Below, one piece after another: positions 6,995 through 34,773 of a stretch of DNA of 34,774 bases. A program made the translations under genes and the position numbers. Origin of the DNA: Candidatus Woesearchaeota archaeon (lineage in GTDB: Archaea > Nanobdellota > Nanobdellia > Woesearchaeales > JACJVV01). The stretch spans positions 1 through 34,774 of the forward strand of contig JBLKOW010000001.1 in NCBI GenBank assembly GCA_047603135.1, read 5' to 3'. Each line of letters opens with the position of its first letter. Positions within the stretch are counted from its first letter, which is position 1. The notes under the pieces are model-generated. The model saw nothing but the letters and a program-made list of their open reading frames with translations. It had not been told where the DNA came from and did not search any database.

Positions 6995-7145
6995 AATTTC
7001 ACCAGATTTTGTTGTTTGTTCAAGAAATAGAGGACTGTTTATAAAGGTTTTTGTGGTGTATACGCAAAGAAGTCTAGTTTACGCGTCAAAAATAATGTAA
7101 TTTTGGCTGGAAAACCAACTAACTCATTCTATTAAGCCCAAAAAT

Positions 7146-7236
7146 TCGAATGTAAAAAGTCAACATGCACGGCGAATTTATGTGTTTCTTACTAAGAAAT
7201 ACATCGCCTCGATGGGCAAAGTAGACTTTCTACTTA
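7146..7236 (-). repeat. Structured interspersed repeat, short form, copy 5 (inverted orientation)
   Basis: Its reverse complement aligns with 32388-32480 and with the 3' module of the long copies (GGCAAAG...GGCGAT-hairpin-TTCGCCGTGCA...GACTTTTTAC). CAAAAAT occurs on both flanks (7139-7145 and 7237-7243). Confidence 0.85.
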
Positions 7237-7334
7237 CAAAAATGCATAAACTATTTATATCGCAGTAATATATGCTGGAATAGTATAATATAGATAGAGA
7301 TAAAAAATCACATAAAACTATATGGGGGGATATT

Positions 7335-14266: not shown

Positions 14267-16486
14267 ATGACAAACGAAAATAGATTACAAGGATCAATTA
14301 AAAGCATTGCAGGGCCACTAGTAGTTGGAAGAGACATGCAAGGCGTAAAAATGTATGATTTAGTTAAGGTTGGAAAACTAAAGCTAATGGGTGAAGTAAT
14401 TCAACTGCGAAATGACACTGCATATATTCAAGTCTATGAAGATACATCTGGTCTTACTACTGGTGAAGAAATTGTCTCAACAGATATGCCATTAAGTGTT
14501 GAATTAGGTCCTGGATTACTTGGAAGCATTCTTGACGGTGTTGGACGCCCGCTTCCTATTATTGCAGAGAAAACAGGAACATACATTGCTCGTGGTGTGG
14601 AAGCTCCCACGATAAATAAAGAAAGACGATATGAATTCTCTCCTTCTATTAAAGAGGGTGATGATGTTGTTCCTGGTCAAGTTCTAGGTTCAGTAAAAGA
14701 AACCGACCTCATTAAACATTACATAATGGTTCCTGTTGGTGTTGTTGGTCGTGTTAAAGACATAATTCCTGGTACATGTACTGCAAAGGATGTTATTGCA
14801 CGAATCCAAACTGCAGGAGGCACTCATGAAATTACATTAGCACAGTGGTGGCCGGTACGTCGCTCACGTCCTGTAAAGAAAAAGCTTGACCCTGCAGAAA
14901 TGCTTGTATCAGGACAGCGTGTTTTCGATACTTTCTTTCCGTTAGTTAAAGGTGGTACTGCAGCTATTCCTGGTCCTTTTGGTTCAGGGAAAACAGTATC
15001 TCAGCATCAGCTTGCAAAATGGGTTAATGCTGATATTGTTGTCTACATTGGTTGTGGTGAGCGTGGAAATGAGATGACTGAAGTACTCAAAGAATTTCCT
15101 GAATTAATAGATCCTAAGACTGGTAAACCACTTATGGAGCGAACAGTTCTTATCGCAAACACAAGTAACATGCCAGTTGCTGCGCGTGAAGCGTCTATTT
15201 ATACAGGGATTACTATTGCAGAATATTATCGTGACATGGGATATGATGTAGCATTAATGGCAGATTCAACATCGCGCTGGGCTGAAGCACTTCGTGAAAT
15301 GTCCTCTCGTCTTGAAGAAATGCCTGGTGAGGAAGGATATCCTGCATACTTATCTTCTCGTCTTGCACAATTTTATGAGCGTGCAGGTAAAGTGGTAACT
15401 CTTAATAATAAAAATTCATCATTATCGATTATTGGTGCAGTTTCTCCTCCTGGTGGAGACTTTTCAGAACCAGTCACACAAAATACCTTGCGTATTACCA
15501 AAGTATTCTGGGGGCTTGATGCAAAACTAGCATACAAGAGACACTTCCCTTCAATTAATTGGTTGACTTCATACTCGCTTTATAGCGATAAATTACATAG
15601 CTTTTACGAAAAAGTTGATGCAGACTTTCCTGATTTAATAAACACGGCAATGTCATTGCTTCAAAAAGAATCCGAACTACAAGAAATTGTTCAGTTAGTT
15701 GGTCCAGATGCACTTCCTGATAATGATCGGCTCGTGCTCCATACCGCGCGAAAGCTACGTGAAGATTATTTACAACAGCACGCTTTTCATGATATTGACT
15801 CCTATTGTTCACTTGAAAAGCAACATATGATGCTTAAAGTAATTATTGATTATCATAATGTACTCAATAGCTTTATCAAAAAAGGATCTAAGTTTGTAAC
15901 ACTTGTTGATGAAAAGATTGATGAGCAAATTGCACGAATTAAATATCAAAAAGATAGTAAAAAATATGTTGCTAATATTTATGATATGATTGAGAAAACA
16001 CGTCCAAAGTCTGTAAGTGAGCGAAAAGATGAAACAGATAAAGAAGGACGAGATGCACAGAAAAAAGCAGATGAGAAAAAAGAGCAAAACGCGCAAAATG
16101 AATCTCGAAGTAACACTCGCAAAGAAACTAAAAAAGAAGTCGCCACAGAAACTAAAAAAGAATCGACTCGAGCGCACTCAGCGTATTTATCAAAAGAATC
16201 TGCTAAAACATCTACTCGTAAGAGTGTAAGTAGTAATAGTAGAAAAAGTGCTGCTAAAAAAGCAAAAAATAAGCTACGTAAAAATCCAAAAAAACGTACA
16301 AAAGTAAAAAAAAGTATGGCACAAAACGCTTCTAAAAAAGTAGCAAAAAAGCCAGTAAAGCGCTCAAATTCGCAAAAACCATCAAAATCGCAAAGAAGCA
16401 ATTCAAAACGTAAAACTGCAGGAAAAAGTTCTGCACGAAAGCGACCACTGTCGCGCAAGCCTAAATCAAGGAAGGTGAAATCATGA
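14267..16486 (+). CDS. atpA: A-type ATP synthase catalytic subunit A with an unusual Lys/Ser/Arg-rich C-terminal extension
   Basis: It has the Walker A motif [17 protein letters not shown], and [16 protein letters not shown]. The homologous core ends near residue 575-585. About 160 low-complexity basic residues follow before the stop, which overlaps the atpB start (ATGA). Confidence 0.95.
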
Positions 16487-18885: not shown

Positions 18886-19623
18886 ATGAAAAATGAATTA
18901 GGTAGTTTAGTTAGTTCTGGAATAGACCCTGAGAAAGCAGAGGCACGTGAATTGTGGAAACGCGGGCATTTGAATGGTTCGTATTCAAACCAAGATCCAG
19001 GATATAAGTTTGCGCGTCGTGCTGAAAAACATGGTTCACCACGAACATATGTTCCTCCAGCAGAAAGACAAATACCTGTGGAAGATGGACATGGAAACTC
19101 TACGAGTGGAAATAAGTTTGATGAACAGTGGTCAGGAGATGATAAAGTATCGCTTGATGAAGTTTTATCAGCAGTTGATTCTGAATCGGTATTTAACGCA
19201 CGTGTTCAAGCAGTGTATGAGGGCGGTGTTCTAGATATCGGTTATGATGCAGATTCACGCGTTATGGAAGTATATGGTGATGCACCTCTTTACAACTTAG
19301 CACTCTTTTTAGGAGATAGTAAAAATGTTTCAGAGGTAGTTGTGCATCATAATGGTGAAGAAAATCGTCTTTCATATGATAAAAAACGCGATGTAATCAG
19401 TCTTAATGGAATGGAAATGTTTTGTCCTCATGATCCAGATAAGCCAATTAACTCAAGACAAGTACATGCAGTTCAGATACCTGGAATGGAAAGAGTAAGT
19501 CTTGAGGCACTTGAAGGAAATGGTCATTATCATCCAGAGATTGAATTCGATGATTTATTGGCAAAACCTGAGACGATGGAACGGCCAAGCACTGATGAAA
19601 TGACTCGTGTGTATAGAGATTAA
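18886..19623 (+). CDS. Hypothetical protein
   Basis: 245-aa ORF, acidic, with no recognisable motif. Its stop codon lies inside the TTAATTAG direct repeat that borders repeat copy 1. Confidence 0.55.
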   Translation: MKNELGSLVSSGIDPEKAEARELWKRGHLNGSYSNQDPGYKFARRAEKHGSPRTYVPPAERQIPVEDGHGNSTSGNKFDEQWSGDDKVSLDEVLSAVDSESVFNARVQAVYEGGVLDIGYDADSRVMEVYGDAPLYNLALFLGDSKNVSEVVVHHNGEENRLSYDKKRDVISLNGMEMFCPHDPDKPINSRQVHAVQIPGMERVSLEALEGNGHYHPEIEFDDLLAKPETMERPSTDEMTRVYRD

Positions 19624-19627
19624 TTAG

Positions 19628-19868
19628 TAAAATCTGCTTTTTCCACCAGTGTGTTTTTACATGCCTGGCTACGTCTGTGCATGTTCACGCGCGGCATAGT
19701 GGAAAAAGCAGGGTCTGAGAAAACCGACCAAGCCGTAGGCGAGCATGCCTCCAGTCTCTGACTGGTGGTGTCGGTTTTCGATTGACAAATCGACTTTGCC
19801 CTTTGAGGCGATGTGTTTCTTGTCAAAGAAACACATAAGTTCGCCGTGCAAGTTGATTTTTTACGTGC
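19628..19868 (+). repeat. Structured interspersed repeat, long form, copy 1 (complete)
   Basis: It aligns with 29074-29310 and 30706-30995, and its 3' module aligns with 32388-32480 and complement 7146-7236. It has multiple internal helices, including a perfect 13-bp pairing (19634-19646 with 19699-19711). It is flanked by the exact 8-bp direct repeat TTAATTAG. Confidence 0.9.
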
Positions 19869-19985
19869 TTAATTAGCTTTTTATTTTCTTTCTTTTATTC
19901 TTTATTCTAACCTAGTATTAACTATGCATTTTATTCCATAACTAATATAAATAATGAGCATTTGGTTCCATTCTGAGGTGAATAA

Positions 19986-28881: not shown

Positions 28882-28903
28882 AGTTATATCTATTAAATTA
28901 TTG

Positions 28904-28965
28904 AAAATCTCGCATTCGAGATTTGAATGGGGATTCAAATACCCCTCACTTTAGTGCGAGATTTT
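28904..28965 (+). repeat. Mini stem-loop element 1 (62 nt, AAAATC...GATTTT termini)
   Basis: The 11-bp closing helix pairs 28904-28914 with 28955-28965. Two mutually exclusive local hairpins form at 28905-28924 and 28921-28940. The GGGG loop (28929-28932) is complementary to CCCC (28942-28945). Confidence 0.7.
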
Positions 28966-28972
28966 TAATTCC

Positions 28973-29053
28973 AAAAATCCGACTCAATCGTGAGTCTGTA
29001 ATACCCCAACATTTATGTTGGGGATAGGACGAACAACCAAGAGTCGGATTTTT
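28973..29053 (+). repeat. Mini stem-loop element 2 (81 nt, AAAAATCCGAC...GTCGGATTTTT termini)
   Basis: The perfect 13-bp closing helix pairs 28973-28985 with 29041-29053. It has an apical 8-bp hairpin (29004-29011 with 29016-29023). The closing helix resembles the AAATCGAC/GTTGATTT helix of the main family. Confidence 0.7.
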
Positions 29054-29073
29054 GTTATTTGCAATCTAAGTAA

Positions 29074-29310
29074 GTAAAATCTGCTTTTTTCACCTGTGTT
29101 TTTTTACATGCCTGGCTACGTCTGTGCATGTTCACTGGTGGTGTAGTAGAAAAAGCAGGGTCTGAGAATACCGACTGAGCCGCATACAAGCATGCCATCA
29201 GTCGGGTGAAAATCAAAGACTTTCAGCGTACCAGAAATTTCATTTCTGTGTATATGACTGGTGGTGTAGGTTTTCGATTGACAGTTTACTTTGCCAAGTG
29301 GAGTTTTTTC
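29074..29310 (+). repeat. Structured interspersed repeat, long form, copy 2 (3' hairpin module missing)
   Basis: It aligns with copy 1 and copy 3 from GTAAAATCTGC to CTTTGCCAAGTGGAG and then diverges. It carries the 52-nt expansion arm also present in copy 3. Confidence 0.85.
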
Positions 29311-29398
29311 AACCAGCTTAAAATATAAGTGCTTCTGAAATCGTACTTTTTATATTAAAAAAGAAACAAAGTATTAATATTTCTTCTTCAAAAGAGAA

Positions 29399-29408
29399 AT
29401 ATTTATAA
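29399..29408 (+). promoter_or_regulatory. TATA-like box for the AAA+ ATPase gene (leaderless spacing)
   Basis: TATTTATAAA is centred about 28 nt upstream of ATG 29432. Confidence 0.35.
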
Positions 29409-29431
29409 ACTTCCTGTATTTTATTGTGTAT

Positions 29432-30709
29432 ATGTATGATAAAAAAAGGCTTGCACTCTATTTTGAAGATACTAAAGTAGTTGTCAAAGACTCTATTGAG
29501 AGAAATCTTAAGCTACCTTCTTCAAAGAGTATTGTTTCATTAATTGGTGCACGAAGAACTGGCAAAACATATCTTTTTTATCAAAAGATTGCTACGCTTC
29601 CAAAAGAACAAGTTATTTTATTAGAATTTGAAAATCCGGTTTTATCGAGGGTAACTGTTGATGAATTTGGTGAGATTATCTCGCAGTATGTGTCACTTTA
29701 TAAAGCGTCATATGATAAAAAGTTATATATTTTTATTGATGAGCCACAAGTACTCCATAACTGGGAGATTGGTATACGATATTTGCATGATACTTTTGAT
29801 TGTGAATTGTATATAACTGGGTCTTCATCGAAACTTTTAAGTAAAGAAATTGCAACATCACTTAGGGGAAGAAATATTTCATTTTATTTATATCCTCTTT
29901 CTTTTGTAGAATTTTTAAGATTTAAAGGAGAGGGTATTATGTTGCCATTAGATACAAAGAAAAAAGGTTTTGTCCTAAATCTATTTAGGGAGTTTTTATT
30001 GTATGGTGGTTTTCCACAAGTTGTTCTTGCTGAATCGGAATTAGAAAAGAAACAAATACTTAAAAATTATTATGACCTTGTTGTATTCAAAGATATAGTT
30101 GACAGGTATAATTTAAAAAACACGAATCTTATTAGGTATCTTATAGAATATGTTGTATCAGCAAATACAAAAGTAATTAGTATTCATAAATTATTCAAAA
30201 CATTGCAATCACAGGGTTTTAAAGTTGCAAAAAATACTCTTTATGACTATTATAGTATTCTTGCTGATGTTTTTTTCATAGTGTCGCTAAAAAAACATTC
30301 ATTTTCAGTTCGAAGGCAAGAATTATCTTTTGAAAAGCCTTTTCTTATTGATGTTGGTTATATGTCCTTATTCTCGATGGAAGATTATGGAAAAAGACTT
30401 GAAAATGTTGTGTGTGTTGAGTTACAAAGGAGGCGTGGTGTACATGATTCCATTTTCTTTACATCTGACAATTCTTTTGAATGCGACTTCCTCATAAAAG
30501 AAGGTGCAAAAATAACGAAAGCAATCCAAGTCTGCTACGAACTAAATGATGATAATGAAAAACGTGAAATTGCAGGGTTAGTAGAAGCATGCAAGACTTA
30601 TAAACTCAAAGAAGGTTTGCTTCTTACCTACGACCATGAAGACTCATTTCAAAAAGATGGCATTACCATTGAAGTAAAACCTGTCTGGAAATGGTTATTA
30701 AGTACGTAA
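29432..30709 (+). CDS. AAA+ superfamily ATPase (COG1373 / DUF4143-type)
   Basis: It has Walker A GARRTGKT and Walker B LYIFIDEPQ, with the size and C-terminal region typical of archaeal DUF4143 ATPases. The ORF track starts at GTG 29426. ATG 29432 fits the TATA spacing. Confidence 0.8.
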   Translation: MYDKKRLALYFEDTKVVVKDSIERNLKLPSSKSIVSLIGARRTGKTYLFYQKIATLPKEQVILLEFENPVLSRVTVDEFGEIISQYVSLYKASYDKKLYIFIDEPQVLHNWEIGIRYLHDTFDCELYITGSSSKLLSKEIATSLRGRNISFYLYPLSFVEFLRFKGEGIMLPLDTKKKGFVLNLFREFLLYGGFPQVVLAESELEKKQILKNYYDLVVFKDIVDRYNLKNTNLIRYLIEYVVSANTKVISIHKLFKTLQSQGFKVAKNTLYDYYSILADVFFIVSLKKHSFSVRRQELSFEKPFLIDVGYMSLFSMEDYGKRLENVVCVELQRRRGVHDSIFFTSDNSFECDFLIKEGAKITKAIQVCYELNDDNEKREIAGLVEACKTYKLKEGLLLTYDHEDSFQKDGITIEVKPVWKWLLST

Positions 30710-30995
30710 AATCTGTTAATACACTAGAGTGTTTTTACATGCCAGACAACATTTGTGCATGTTCACTGGTGGTGTAGTGGAAAAAAGCAGGGTTTGATAA
30801 AACCGACCGAGCAGTGGGAGAGCATGCCACCAATCCGATGAAAATAAAAGATTTTCAGCGTACCAGAAATTTCATTTCTGTGTGTATGGCTGGTGATGTC
30901 GATTTTCGATTGACAGTCTACTTTGCCAAGTGAGGCGATATTTCTTAATTTCACTAAAAAAATGTACTCGCCGTGCAAGTTGACTTTTTACGTTC
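30706..30995 (+). repeat. Structured interspersed repeat, long form, copy 3 (complete, 5' part diverged)
   Basis: It aligns with copies 1 and 2 and includes both the 51-nt expansion arm and the 3' hairpin module. The ATPase stop codon TAA (30707-30709) lies inside its first nucleotides. Confidence 0.9.
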
Positions 30996-31083
30996 CTAAA
31001 AACAAAACACATAAATAGAATCTTATAAAGCCTTATAGTATATATTACACAAAAGCTTTAACTTAAATTATTAAACTTCACAC

Positions 31084-32362: not shown

Positions 32363-32387
32363 TGCTTATTATGAAATGTACTATACA

Positions 32388-32480
32388 CAGCGAGTAAAAA
32401 GTTTGCTTTGCCTTTCGAGGCGATATGTTTCTTGATAAAGAAACATATAAATTCGCCGTGCAAGCTTGACTTTTTACGTG
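32388..32480 (+). repeat. Structured interspersed repeat, short form, copy 4
   Basis: GCGAGTAAAAAGT...ACTTTTTACGTG inverted termini enclose the conserved CTTTGCC-GAGGCGAT-hairpin-TTCGCCGTGCAAG module. CTATACA occurs on both flanks (32381-32387 and 32481-32487). Confidence 0.9.
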
Positions 32481-32551
32481 CTATACATAAAAGATAAATA
32501 GTACATATTATAAAATTGGCTTTATACTGAGATTAAAAGTTTTTATTAAAC

Positions 32552-34636: not shown

Positions 34637-34644
34637 TTTATAAA
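34637..34644 (+). promoter_or_regulatory. TATA box for tRNA-Glu
   Basis: TTTATAAA is centred about 29 nt upstream of tRNA position 1. Confidence 0.4.
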
Positions 34645-34668
34645 CAATTCTAAAATCGTTATCTTATT

Positions 34669-34773
34669 GCCCTTGTGGTGTAGTCCGGCCAATCATTTTG
34701 GATTTTCGTGGCGAAGAATCAAACTTCTCGCCGAAAACATCCAAAGACTCGGGTTCGAATCCCGGCGAGGGCA
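34669..34773 (+). tRNA. tRNA-Glu(UUC) with a 30-nt intron at the canonical 37/38 position
   Basis: Hand fold: acceptor GCCCTTG/CGAGGGC; D arm GGTGTAGTCCGGCCAATCAT, typical of archaeal tRNA-Glu; anticodon stem TTGGA/TCCAA with loop TTTTCG|intron|A (anticodon TTC at 34705-34707); 4-nt variable loop; T arm TCGGG-TTCGAAT-CCCGG; discriminator A. The intron (34709-34738) contains its own GGCG...CGCC hairpin. CCA is not encoded within the window. Confidence 0.85.

What the first reader, a model, noticed from the sequence alone, without database searches (positions are those of the whole stretch)
19787..19859. Covarying helices with conserved flaws in the shared 3' module
Base pairs change in a compensated way between copies. 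The closing helix reads AAATCGAC/GTTGATTT in copy 1, AGTCTAC/GTTGACT in copies 3 and 5, and AAAAAGT/ACTTTTT in copy 4. The apical hairpin reads TGTGTTTCTT/AAGAAACACA in copy 1 and TATGTTTCTT/AAGAAACATA in copy 4.

The imperfections, by contrast, are conserved. Every copy has one extra T (CTTTG opposite CAAG). Every copy has a non-Watson-Crick position in mid-helix (G-T in copy 1, T-T in copies 3, 4 and 5). The strings CTTTGCC and TTCGCCGTGCA are nearly invariant. Wobble G-T/G-U pairs are only acceptable on the element's sense strand.

Structure conserved together with its flaws is typical of sites read as folded single strands. Examples are integron attC sites (extrahelical bases), IS200/IS605 subterminal hairpins (bulged T), and protein-bound RNAs.
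Basis: partly seen in the sequence, partly recalled or inferred. Interest (0 to 1): 0.7.

Follow-up and report, generated by a model that had tools for sequence, protein, structure and literature searches.

The report
Mobile hairpin repeat, Woesearchaeota genome
A small hairpin-forming, non-coding DNA repeat occurs five times in this 35-kb contig of a Woesearchaeota archaeon and most likely is a miniature transposable element (MITE-like); only two or three compensated base-pair changes hint that its fold is under selection, so it is a fairly ordinary kind of thing in a little-studied lineage.

Summary
The sequence features are real. Window 19787-19859 is the 3' hairpin module of a repeat with five copies in this contig. 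The contig belongs to a Candidatus Woesearchaeota MAG.

The copies come in two forms:
- Two short copies of about 91-93 nt are one long imperfect hairpin.
- Three long copies of about 240-300 nt are the same unit with a 165-215-nt structured segment inserted behind the left end.

Features that fit a MITE-like mobile element:
- All ends carry a terminal inverted repeat (nAGnAC-GTAAAA ... TTTTTAC-GTnCTn).
- Three of four testable copies are flanked by 7-8-bp direct repeats, expected by chance at 0.017 per copy.
- All copies sit in AT-rich intergenic DNA, mostly just after stop codons.
- Two copies are visibly decaying.

Covariation is thin. The 3' module has two clean compensated pairs and one doubtful one. 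The 5' module has none. The "conserved flaws" lie in nearly invariant columns of copies that are about 85% identical, so shared ancestry explains them.

I found no Rfam family. I found no transposase, TnpA, TnpB, IscB or integrase in the 39 kb of this genome I could see. I found no copies in relatives or in public collections.

Best reading: a new MITE/REPIN-like family. The attC and IS200/IS605 definitions are not met.

The parts
19627..19868 (+). Copy c1, long form and best preserved. It runs from the left terminal repeat GTAAAA (19627-19632), through the 5' module (to 19786) and the 3' hairpin module (19787-19864, which is the finding), to the terminal extension GTGC.
   Evidence: Repeat families D1, D3, D4 and D7. 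R1 hit 19786-19866 at 102 bits. RNA fold -100 kcal/mol with z -6.9. The outermost helix GUAAA/UUUAC closes a multi-branch fold.
19620..19627 (+). Left copy of the 8-bp direct repeat TTAATTAG flanking c1. It contains the TAA stop codon of the upstream 245-aa gene.
   Evidence: Longest common flank word is 8 nt (chance of 8 or more: 0.005). Caveat: this word overlaps the weak terminal extension ATTAAnTA.
19869..19876 (+). Right copy of the direct repeat TTAATTAG flanking c1.
29074..29355 (+). Copy c2, long form and decaying. The 5' module is intact and carries a ~50-nt extra hairpin shared with c3. In the 3' module the inner helix GAGGCGAT/TCGCC is lost, but the end GTACTTTTTAT is still recognisable.
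   Evidence: D1, D2 and D7. nhmmer E = 1.8e-73 for the 5' module. R1 gives only 16.3 bits at 29281-29355. 10 mismatches plus 1 A.C among the 28 pairs of the 3' module.
30701..30997 (+). Copy c3, long form. Its left end supplies the last two codons and the stop codon of the AAA_14/DUF4143 ATPase gene. The inner helix is intact. The apical hairpin is degenerate and in a shifted register.
   Evidence: D1-D3. Inverted repeat I12, 30694-30711 with 30986-31003, 83%. R1 87.8 bits. Homologues keep ...PVWKWLL and then differ. RNA fold z is only -1.8.
32388..32480 (+). Copy c4, short form (93 nt). It is one long imperfect hairpin, GTAAAAAGT...ACTTTTTAC, and lies between the convergent MazG-like gene and a 144-aa gene.
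   Evidence: D3 and D5. R1 98.8 bits. DNA fold z -5.7 on both strands.
32381..32387 (+). Left copy of the 7-bp direct repeat CTATACA flanking c4.
   Evidence: chance of 7 or more: 0.017. Removing c4 and one repeat restores a 9-bp hairpin, ATGTACTAT...ATAGTACAT (I25).
32481..32487 (+). Right copy of the direct repeat CTATACA flanking c4.
7146..7236 (-). Copy cA, short form (91 nt) on the minus strand. It lies in the divergent spacer between the DoxX gene (+) and the ribosomal L44e gene (-), upstream of L44e's own TTTATAAAC promoter-like box.
   Evidence: R1 95.3 bits at 7150-7229 on the minus strand. Present unchanged in an independent 18.8-kb Logan contig.
7237..7243 (-). Left copy (in element orientation) of the 7-bp direct repeat ATTTTTG flanking cA.
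7139..7145 (-). Right copy (in element orientation) of the direct repeat ATTTTTG flanking cA.

Best explanation
The finding is the right-hand hairpin of a lineage-specific, non-coding, non-autonomous mobile element of the MITE type.

Basic unit and long form
- The basic unit is the short form (about 91-93 bp). Its two arms are an imperfect inverted repeat running from the termini (nAGnAC-GTAAAA / TTTTTAC-GTnCTn) to a 10-bp apical hairpin.
- The long form is the same unit with a 165-215-nt self-folding segment inserted at one fixed point, between GTAAAA and AGTCTAC.

Inferred mechanism
- A transposase encoded elsewhere in the genome (not seen here) inserts copies into AT-rich intergenic DNA. 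Most insertions lie just after stop codons and leave a short target duplication. (Inferred.)
- Copies then decay. (Shown: c2 and c3.)
- Hairpin complementarity in the younger copies c1, c4 and cA is kept slightly more than chance predicts. This can come from selection on a single-stranded transposition intermediate or transcript. It can also come from arm-to-arm templated repair in a palindrome. (Inferred.)
- Four of five copies lie directly downstream of a co-oriented gene and end in hairpin plus T5-6. When read through they probably form a 3' hairpin and an oligo-T stop for the archaeal RNA polymerase. This would be a side effect or an exaptation, not the reason the repeat exists. (Inferred.)
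For: - Five copies in 34.8 kb, in two size classes that share both ends.
- All nine readable ends share GTAAAA plus a weak extension, with G at position -4 in 8 of 9 ends. c3 has an 18-nt terminal inverted repeat at 83% (I12).
- Direct repeats of 8, 7 and 7 bp with different sequences flank c1, c4 and cA. The chance of 7 bp or more at random sites in this window is 0.017.
- Excising c4 restores a host hairpin (I25).
- c3 replaces the C-terminal codons of a conserved ATPase.
- c2 and c3 carry many uncompensated changes, and paired and unpaired columns of the 5' module diverge alike. This is the behaviour of decaying insertions.
- Independent Logan assemblies of the same organism break inside the element, as expected for a genomic repeat.
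- The element is absent from 80 kb around the ATPase operon and a homologous gene in the nearest available relatives. Exact-pattern scans of metagenome and viral collections and blastn against the phage and plasmid collections found nothing related.
- It matches no Rfam family.
- There is no conserved promoter box upstream of copies, and no conserved ORF.
- Literature: MITEs have direct repeats that wane with time, insert in AT-rich spacers, give stable stem-loop transcripts, cluster and nest, and include a terminator-like family (PMC10969869). A Woesearchaeal genome is among the most MITE-dense archaea, at 105 per Mb (PMC11602168).
Against: - No transposase with matching ends was found. Only about 39 kb of the genome could be read.
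- The ends are ragged. The direct repeats lie 0-6 nt from the conserved core. On one side of each copy they overlap the weak terminal extension. The duplication could therefore be 4 bp plus microhomology rather than 7-8 bp.
- c2 and c3 have no flank repeat.
- The best conserved part is interior (CTTTGCC, GAGGCGAT, TCGCCGTGCA), not the termini, and 4 nt beside it are hypervariable. That pattern fits a protein- or fold-constrained motif better than a plain transposase-binding end.
- Compensated changes in c1 and c4 are nominally more frequent than chance (P about 0.008).
- All five copies are co-oriented with a neighbouring gene.
Confidence: 0.6

Rival explanations
1. A functional structured RNA. 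The element would be a cis-acting 3'-UTR module (stabiliser or terminator) or a small RNA. Its fold and internal-loop nucleotides would be selected because a protein binds them. It would have spread by transposition or duplication.
For: - Plus-strand RNA folds are better than minus-strand folds in 5 of 5 copies.
- Three G.T against one A.C in the module.
- Seven of nine changes in paired columns of c1, c4 and cA keep or improve pairing.
- Invariant loop nucleotides sit next to a hypervariable 4-mer.
- GC content is 46% against about 35% for the surroundings.
- Four of five copies lie just after a co-oriented stop codon and end in T5-6.
Against: - No Rfam match even at E = 10.
- No promoter box upstream.
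- The 5' module shows no compensation and decays at a near-neutral rate.
- c2 lost the conserved inner helix entirely.
- cA lies upstream of, not inside, a transcription unit with its own promoter-like box.
- Not found in relatives.
- The internal loop is not a K-turn: it has U where the essential A(1n) should be (read from the sequence, my own knowledge of the motif).
Confidence: 0.15
2. A hairpin read as single-stranded DNA and moved by a Y1 HUH enzyme, as in REPIN/RAYT or an IS200/IS605-derived palindromic element. This would be the first such system in DPANN archaea.
For: - The short form is an 80-90-nt imperfect hairpin like a REPIN. [quoted passage not shown]
- A local alternative hairpin, TTGCC-N6-GGCGA, exists on the left arm only. 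It recalls the REPIN 'clover' fold.
- cA starts with GTAG.
- The ragged ends fit poorly with a cut-and-paste DDE enzyme.
Against: - Flanking direct repeats of different sequence at three copies. No flanking target duplication is noted for REPINs in the passages I read, and IS200/IS605 elements make none (my own knowledge).
- No conserved tetra- or pentanucleotide lies next to the left end.
- Both DNA strands fold equally well.
- No Y1 gene in 39 kb.
- RAYT systems are known only from bacteria (abstracts listed).
Confidence: 0.12
3. Integron attC sites, that is, a cluster of attC sites lacking an integrase (CALIN). The region 29.0-32.5 kb would be a cassette array.
For: - c2, c3 and c4 are co-oriented within 3.4 kb, with one or two ORFs between them.
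- GTTGACT resembles GTTRRRY at 6 of 7 positions.
- Archaeal integrons, mostly CALINs, occur in Nanoarchaeota (DPANN), and attCs within one genome resemble each other (PMC9668308).
Against: - AGTCTAC matches RYYYAAC at only 5 of 7 positions. A T.T or G.T mismatch falls inside the AAC/GTT triplet.
- Four to five further base pairs follow the 7-bp box directly, where an attC has an unpaired spacer.
- Conservation and the inverted repeat continue about 8-12 nt beyond the would-be crossover point.
- c1 and cA are singletons among housekeeping genes (ATPase operon, L44e).
- Flanking direct repeats are present.
- A 165-215-nt extra module has no place in an attC.
- No IntI gene.
Confidence: 0.03
4. 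Orphan guide-RNA scaffolds of a transposon nuclease or recombinase (TnpB/IscB omega RNA, or an IS110 bridge RNA).
For: - Size (240-300 nt) and a multi-helix fold with conserved internal loops.
- A hypervariable 4-mer in a loop.
Against: - No Rfam hit to any described RNA family.
- No adjacent nuclease or recombinase ORF. The large unknown ORFs are coiled-coil-like and have no Pfam or NCBIfam hit.
- By eye I saw no complementarity between the variable 4-mer and the flanks. I did not run a systematic search.
- Short copies lack most of the scaffold.
Confidence: 0.03

Closest known systems
Bacterial palindromic MITEs that act at the RNA level: ERIC/IRU of enterobacteria, and BOX, RUP and SPRITE of Streptococcus pneumoniae (SPRITE is the terminator-like one)
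   Same: Small non-coding intergenic repeats that fold into a long imperfect hairpin. They have size variants made by insertion of extra modules at fixed internal points. They cluster and nest, produce stable stem-loop transcripts, and SPRITE looks like a terminator (PMC10969869). The ERIC size variants are from my own knowledge.
   Different: The host is a DPANN archaeon. There is no sequence similarity. Archaeal termination needs only the oligo-T, so any terminator role would work differently. The mobilising enzyme is unknown.
QMITE2 of Coxiella burnetii and classical IS-derived MITEs
   Same: QMITE2 has direct repeats of 7-9 bp, terminal inverted repeats of about 20-30 bp, a core of about 100-150 bp and a very stable predicted transcript fold (PMC10969869, Figure 2 legend). 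These numbers are close to those of the long form here.
   Different: No parent IS with the same ends is known. The termini here are ragged. The interior is better conserved than the ends.
REPINs mobilised by RAYT (Y1 HUH) transposases
   Same: A hairpin of about 70-110 nt made of two inverted conserved arms, with extragenic location, common compensatory changes and decaying singlets (PMC3116915).
   Different: REPINs are bacterial. Their arms carry 16-bp invariant blocks at the two ends. A linked single-copy RAYT gene exists. None of this is shown here, and these copies do have flank repeats.
Archaeal MITEs (Sulfolobus, Halobacterium, Haloquadratum; census of 8220 archaeal genomes)
   Same: Non-autonomous repeats in archaeal spacers. 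A Woesearchaeal genome reaches 105 MITEs per Mb (PMC11602168). The five copies seen here in 34.8 kb correspond to about 140 per Mb.
   Different: This family could not be matched to any described one. I could not check the census's sequence files.
Integron attC sites
   Same: An imperfect hairpin with a bulged base, a closing box that begins GTT on the 3' arm, an inner box and a variable tip. Copies within one genome are similar to each other.
   Different: The consensus and geometry are not met. The element has terminal inverted repeats and flank repeats, singleton copies among core genes, and an extra 5' module. There is no integrase.

Membership tests
Prokaryotic MITE | Short (under about 500 bp), non-coding and multi-copy within a genome | tested here: met
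   Five copies of 91-297 nt in 34.8 kb. No ORF is conserved between copies.
Prokaryotic MITE | Terminal inverted repeats | tested here: met
   GTAAAA/TTTTTAC at all nine readable ends, plus the weak extension nAGnAC. c3 has 18 nt at 83%.
Prokaryotic MITE | Target-site duplication directly abutting the ends | tested here: inconclusive
   Direct repeats of 8, 7 and 7 bp at c1, c4 and cA (chance 0.017 each). They lie 0-6 nt from the conserved core and overlap the terminal extension on one side. c2 and c3 have none.
Prokaryotic MITE | Cognate autonomous IS or transposase with the same ends | not testable with these tools
   None in the window or in the 4.1-kb extension. The rest of the genome could not be fetched.
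Prokaryotic MITE | Insertion polymorphism or empty sites | tested here: inconclusive
   The Logan contigs retrieved for flanking genes (about a dozen, from several sequencing runs) all carry the same insertions. No relative is close enough to show an empty site.
Integron attC | R''/R' boxes RYYYAAC and GTTRRRY, fully paired | tested here: not met
   AGTCTAC matches 5 of 7 and GTTGACT 6 of 7. A T.T (G.T in c1) falls inside the AAC/GTT triplet. The consensus is from my own knowledge.
Integron attC | Unpaired central spacer next to the R box, then the L box, with homology ending at R' | tested here: not met
   Four to five more pairs (TTTGC/GCAA) follow the 7-bp box. Conservation continues about 8-12 nt past the box.
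Integron attC | IntI integrase, or an array of two or more sites with cassette ORFs | tested here: inconclusive
   No tyrosine recombinase. c2, c3 and c4 form an array-like stretch, but c1 and cA are isolated among core genes.
IS200/IS605 ends or derived palindromic elements | Subterminal imperfect hairpins at both ends on the same strand, with no terminal inverted repeat and no duplication | tested here: not met
   Short copies are a single hairpin. Terminal inverted repeats and flank repeats are present.
IS200/IS605 ends or derived palindromic elements | Conserved 4-5-nt target immediately 5' of the left end | tested here: not met
   Left flanks differ between copies beyond the shared extension.
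IS200/IS605 ends or derived palindromic elements | TnpA (Y1) and/or TnpB in the genome | not testable with these tools
   None in 39 kb.
REPIN/RAYT | Two inverted REPs forming a hairpin of about 70-110 nt, with frequent compensated changes | tested here: inconclusive
   The short form fits in size and shape. There are two or three compensated pairs. Compare PMC3116915.
REPIN/RAYT | A single-copy RAYT gene flanked by the repeats | not testable with these tools
   Not seen in 39 kb.
Any Rfam RNA family (including omega RNA, HEARO, sRNAs and ribozymes) | Covariance-model match | tested here: not met
   Only a tRNA passes gathering thresholds in the window. On the copies, nothing scores better than E = 1.4.

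The most novel reading that the evidence does not exclude
The hairpin would be a site read in folded single-stranded form. It could be ssDNA handled by a HUH-type enzyme, or RNA bound by a protein at the invariant GCC/GAGGCGA-UCGCCGUGC loop. It would spread through a DPANN archaeal genome. That would make it the first REPIN/RAYT-like, or protein-bound mobile RNA-motif, system described in Archaea. The 5' module would be an added functional domain.
Probability: 0.12. Interest if true: 0.6.

Novelty: new member of a known kind. Interest (0 to 1): 0.3.

Why it matters
- DPANN archaea have tiny genomes, yet this one carries a dense load of structured repeats: five copies plus two other palindromic units in 35 kb.
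- This fits a recent census that ranks a Woesearchaeal genome among the most MITE-rich archaea (PMC11602168).
- The family breaks short-read assemblies. It has rewritten the end of at least one gene. It places hairpin-plus-oligo-T signals behind genes, so it matters for annotation and binning and possibly for 3'-end formation in these organisms.
- If the fold proves to be selected, it would offer a handle on an unknown archaeal transposition or RNA-binding activity.
- As it stands, it is an ordinary kind of element in an under-described lineage.

Tried and rejected
1. The one genome-contig scan used GAGGCGATN{24,40}TCGCCGTGCA. The pattern was too GC-rich. All 120 loci (L001-L120) are chance hits in GC-rich bacteria, so the scan was wasted.
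2. The first metagenome scan, with the 25-base pattern CTTTGCCNNNNGAGGCGATN{24,40}TCGCCGTGCA, gave 0 hits. The second, with TTTTCGATTGACAN{5,6}CTTTGCC, gave six loci (L123-L128). None resembles the element beyond the pattern itself.
3. Three viral scans gave 0 hits.
4. I searched the protein database with a spurious 68-aa ORF of the element, hoping to catch other copies. It found nothing.
5. I looked for other contigs of the same genome through paralogues of the AAA_14 ATPase. Only the same locus came back, in seven Logan runs, plus one foreign MAG.
6. Walking off the contig ends added 4.1 kb on the left and no new copy. Nothing was gained on the right.
7. The covariance model on 80 kb from the nearest relatives found nothing.
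8. blastn against the phage and plasmid collections found no match.
9. Ideas considered and dropped:
- K-turn: the A at 1n is replaced by U.
- H/ACA or C/D sRNA: no boxes and no pocket.
- Archaeal origin recognition box: the GTGGAAA motifs are stem arms 50 nt apart, not a contiguous dyad, and there is no orc1/cdc6 gene.
- IS66 derivative: the GTAA ends and an IS66-type gene in relative L131 suggested it, but the 8 bp abutting GTAA/TTAC are not direct repeats.
- SINE-like retro-copy: copies extend past the T-run, and short copies keep the 5' end.
- Small protein gene: no frame is conserved.
Full report
WHAT THE WINDOW IS

The 34,774 bases are a complete contig of an NCBI metagenome-assembled genome named Candidatus Woesearchaeota archaeon. 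Its A-type ATPase subunit B is on record with a longest contig of exactly 34,774 nt. The genes are archaeal:
- aIF2-alpha, ribosomal L44e and a full A/V-ATPase operon.
- DnaK, DnaJ and GrpE.
- A tRNA with an intron.

GC content is about 35%. The nearest relatives in the protein collection are only 77-79% identical in subunit B.

THE OBSERVATION

Window 19787-19859 is the 3' hairpin of a repeat. Repeat finding, pattern searches, a covariance model built from the hairpin (R1) and an nhmmer profile of the 5' part all agree on five copies and no more:
- c1: 19627-19868 (+).
- c2: 29074-29355 (+).
- c3: 30701-30997 (+).
- c4: 32388-32480 (+).
- cA: 7146-7236 (-).

The fold is far better than chance. 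Whole c1 as RNA gives -100 kcal/mol and z -6.9. The hairpin alone as DNA gives z -5.6.

ANATOMY

- c4 and cA are short forms. Each is a single long imperfect hairpin: GTAAAAAGTCTAC-TTTGCC-NNNN-GAGGCGA-[10-bp hairpin]-TAAAT-TCGCC-GT-GCAAG-TTGACTTTTTAC.
- c1, c2 and c3 are the same unit with 165-215 nt inserted at one point, between GTAAAA and A(A/G)TC. The inserted segment folds on its own into two branched stems.
- In c1 the outer GUAAA/UUUAC pairs close a multi-branch structure.
- c2 and c3 share a further ~50-nt hairpin inside that segment.
- When all nine readable ends are aligned in the same sense, conservation continues about 5-6 nt outside GTAAAA (nAGnAC, with G in 8 of 9 ends) and then stops.
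- c3's inverted termini reach 18 nt at 83%. However, homologues of the upstream ATPase keep ...PVWKWLL. The element therefore starts no earlier than 30701, and it supplies the last two codons and the stop codon.

EVIDENCE FOR INSERTION

- Different direct repeats flank three copies: TTAATTAG (c1), CTATACA (c4) and ATTTTTG (cA). At random sites in this window, a shared flank word of 7 nt or more occurs with probability 0.017.
- Removing c4 and one repeat restores a 9-bp host hairpin (I25).
- The insertion sites are AT-rich spacers. Four copies lie 0-190 nt after the stop codon of a co-oriented gene. cA lies between divergent genes.
- c2 and c3 are decaying. c2 has lost the inner helix (R1 16 bits against 88-102 for the others). 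c3's apical hairpin is degenerate, and the whole-copy fold has z of only -1.8.
- Independent Logan assemblies from about ten runs contain the same loci and break inside the element, as repeats do. One 18.8-kb contig carries cA unchanged.

Caveat. The repeats do not abut a fixed terminus: the offsets are 0/4, 6/3 and 3/6 nt. On one side of each copy they overlap the weak terminal extension. The duplication may therefore be 4 bp plus 3 nt of microhomology. c1's repeat is partly explained by the TTAA in the termini. c2 and c3 show no flank repeat.

COVARIATION AND "CONSERVED FLAWS"

On the four intact hairpins, 89.8% of cells pair. Three pairs show a change on both sides:
- Columns 6-75: A-T in c1, G-C in the other copies.
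- Columns 30-51: A-T in c4.
- Columns 32-49: this pair lies in c3's misaligned hairpin and is doubtful.

Statistics:
- 15 of 500 column shuffles reach this count.
- A simulation with the observed number of substitutions placed at random gives P about 0.008 without c3 and about 0.024 with it.

Among c1, c4 and cA, seven of nine changes in paired columns keep or improve pairing. Those seven are four changes in two compensated pairs, two changes to G.T, and one T.T to G.T. cA has two disruptive changes.

The 5' module has no double change. Relative to c1's fold, 8 of 55 pairs are broken in c2 and 13 of 55 in c3. Its paired and unpaired columns differ at similar rates.

The bulged T and the mid-helix T.T lie in nearly invariant columns of copies about 85% identical, so descent alone accounts for them. 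cA breaks the "CAAG" rule. RNAalifold prefers another register for the inner helix, so the position of the flaws depends on the model.

Strand asymmetry is weak. As DNA the two strands fold equally well. As RNA the plus strand is better in 5 of 5 copies.

WHAT IT IS NOT

- No Rfam family matches.
- No ORF is conserved between copies.
- Pfam and NCBIfam find no transposase, Y1 HUH, TnpB/IscB or tyrosine recombinase in any ORF of the window. The genes called in the extra 4.1 kb carry no such Pfam hit.
- The two large unknown ORFs are coiled-coil-like.
- The attC definition is not met:
  - The boxes match 5 of 7 and 6 of 7 positions, with a mismatch inside AAC/GTT.
  - Paired bases stand where the unpaired spacer should be.
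  - Homology continues past the crossover point.
  - There are singleton copies among core genes.
  - Flank repeats are present, and there is an extra module.
- The IS200/IS605 definition is not met:
  - Short copies have one hairpin.
  - Terminal inverted repeats are present.
  - There is no fixed target.
  - Flank repeats are present.

DISTRIBUTION

- The covariance model finds nothing in 80 kb around the ATPase operon and a related ATPase gene of the nearest relatives.
- Two metagenome scans and three viral scans found nothing related. blastn against phages and plasmids found no match.
- The single genome-collection scan was wasted on an unspecific pattern. Absence from other sequenced genomes is therefore not established.

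MOST LIKELY MECHANISM

The element is a non-autonomous MITE-type element moved by an enzyme encoded elsewhere. The basic unit is the palindromic short form, and the long form is a modular derivative.
- Shown: multi-copy, two forms with shared inverted ends, intergenic AT-rich sites, one gene end rewritten, decay of older copies, and lineage restriction as far as it could be tested.
- Inferred: the target duplication and its length, the transposase, and a side role as a 3' hairpin plus oligo-T stop when read through from the upstream gene.

The modest excess of compensated changes fits what is reported for REPIN hairpins (PMC3116915). It can arise from selection on a single-stranded intermediate or transcript, or from templated repair between the arms.

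MITE reviews describe the same set of traits: waning direct repeats, AT-rich spacers, stable stem-loop transcripts, nesting and clustering, and terminator-like families (PMC10969869). A census found a Woesearchaeal genome with 105 MITEs per Mb (PMC11602168). The density here is about 140 per Mb.

WHAT KEEPS THE MORE INTERESTING READINGS ALIVE

- The interior motif (CTTTGCC, GAGGCGAT, TCGCCGTGCA) is better conserved than the termini and sits next to a hypervariable 4-mer.
- All copies are co-oriented with a neighbouring gene.
- The ends are ragged.

These points fit a protein-bound RNA or a hairpin handled as ssDNA somewhat better than a textbook DDE MITE. With five copies, none of this can be tested further here.

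VERDICT

This is a new member of a known kind (a MITE/REPIN-like palindromic repeat) in a DPANN archaeon. Interest is about 0.3.

Noticed in passing
window 28900-28969 and 28959-29067: Two further small palindromic units lie directly 5' of copy c2. Their arms are ATTGAAAATCTCGCA/TGCGAGATTTTTAAT (93%) and AGATTTTTAATTCCAAAAATCCGACTC/GAGTCGGATTTTTGTTATTTGCAATCT (81%). Their ends (AAAATC.. / ..GATTTTT) resemble those of the main element. Each is single-copy in the 39 kb seen, and Rfam finds nothing there. The spacer 28882-29425 is a pile-up of hairpin elements.
   Followed up: partly
window 34669-34773: A tRNA gene with an intron lies at the very end of the contig (last base 34773 of 34774; reported as not cut off). 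Rfam scores it at 45 bits. ARAGORN run with bacterial settings misses it.
   Followed up: no
window 14267-16486 (tail about 15990-16486): A-ATPase catalytic subunit A is 739 aa. After the normal domains it has a Lys/Ser/Arg-rich low-complexity tail of about 165 aa. This shows as an AT skew of 0.43-0.47. Relatives have 574-586 aa.
   Followed up: partly
L129 5319-5929, L130 3791-4401, L131 11387-12400, L132 2974-3987: In related Woesearchaeota or Nanoarchaeota contigs, the ATPase operon carries foreign genes inserted between subunits B and D. These are a MazE-PIN toxin-antitoxin pair or a DUF1016/YhcG nuclease-like gene. The present contig has neither.
   Followed up: no
window 30695-30709: The AAA_14/DUF4143 ATPase gene (29426-30709) ends inside copy c3. 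Homologues share ...PVWKWLL and then have 1-6 unrelated residues. Here the last two codons and the TAA stop come from the element's left end.
   Followed up: yes
window 32369-32384 and 32498-32513: A 16-nt inverted repeat (88%) brackets copy c4 and its flank repeats. Without c4 it would form a hairpin between the convergent MazG-like gene and the 144-aa gene. It may be a native terminator that served as the insertion site.
   Followed up: partly
window about 200-210, 29397-29405, 34638-34646, and about 7040 on the minus strand: The motif TTTATAAAC recurs about 25-50 nt upstream of gene starts and of the tRNA. It is probably this organism's TATA/BRE promoter box. It is absent upstream of the element copies, apart from a weak ATATAAATA before cA.
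   Followed up: no
L131 1-508: A relative's contig carries a 925-aa gene with IS66-type DDE transposase and RNase H-like domains. IS66 ends start with GTAA (my own knowledge), like this element. However, the 8 bp abutting GTAA/TTAC here are not direct repeats, so I did not pursue the link.
   Followed up: partly
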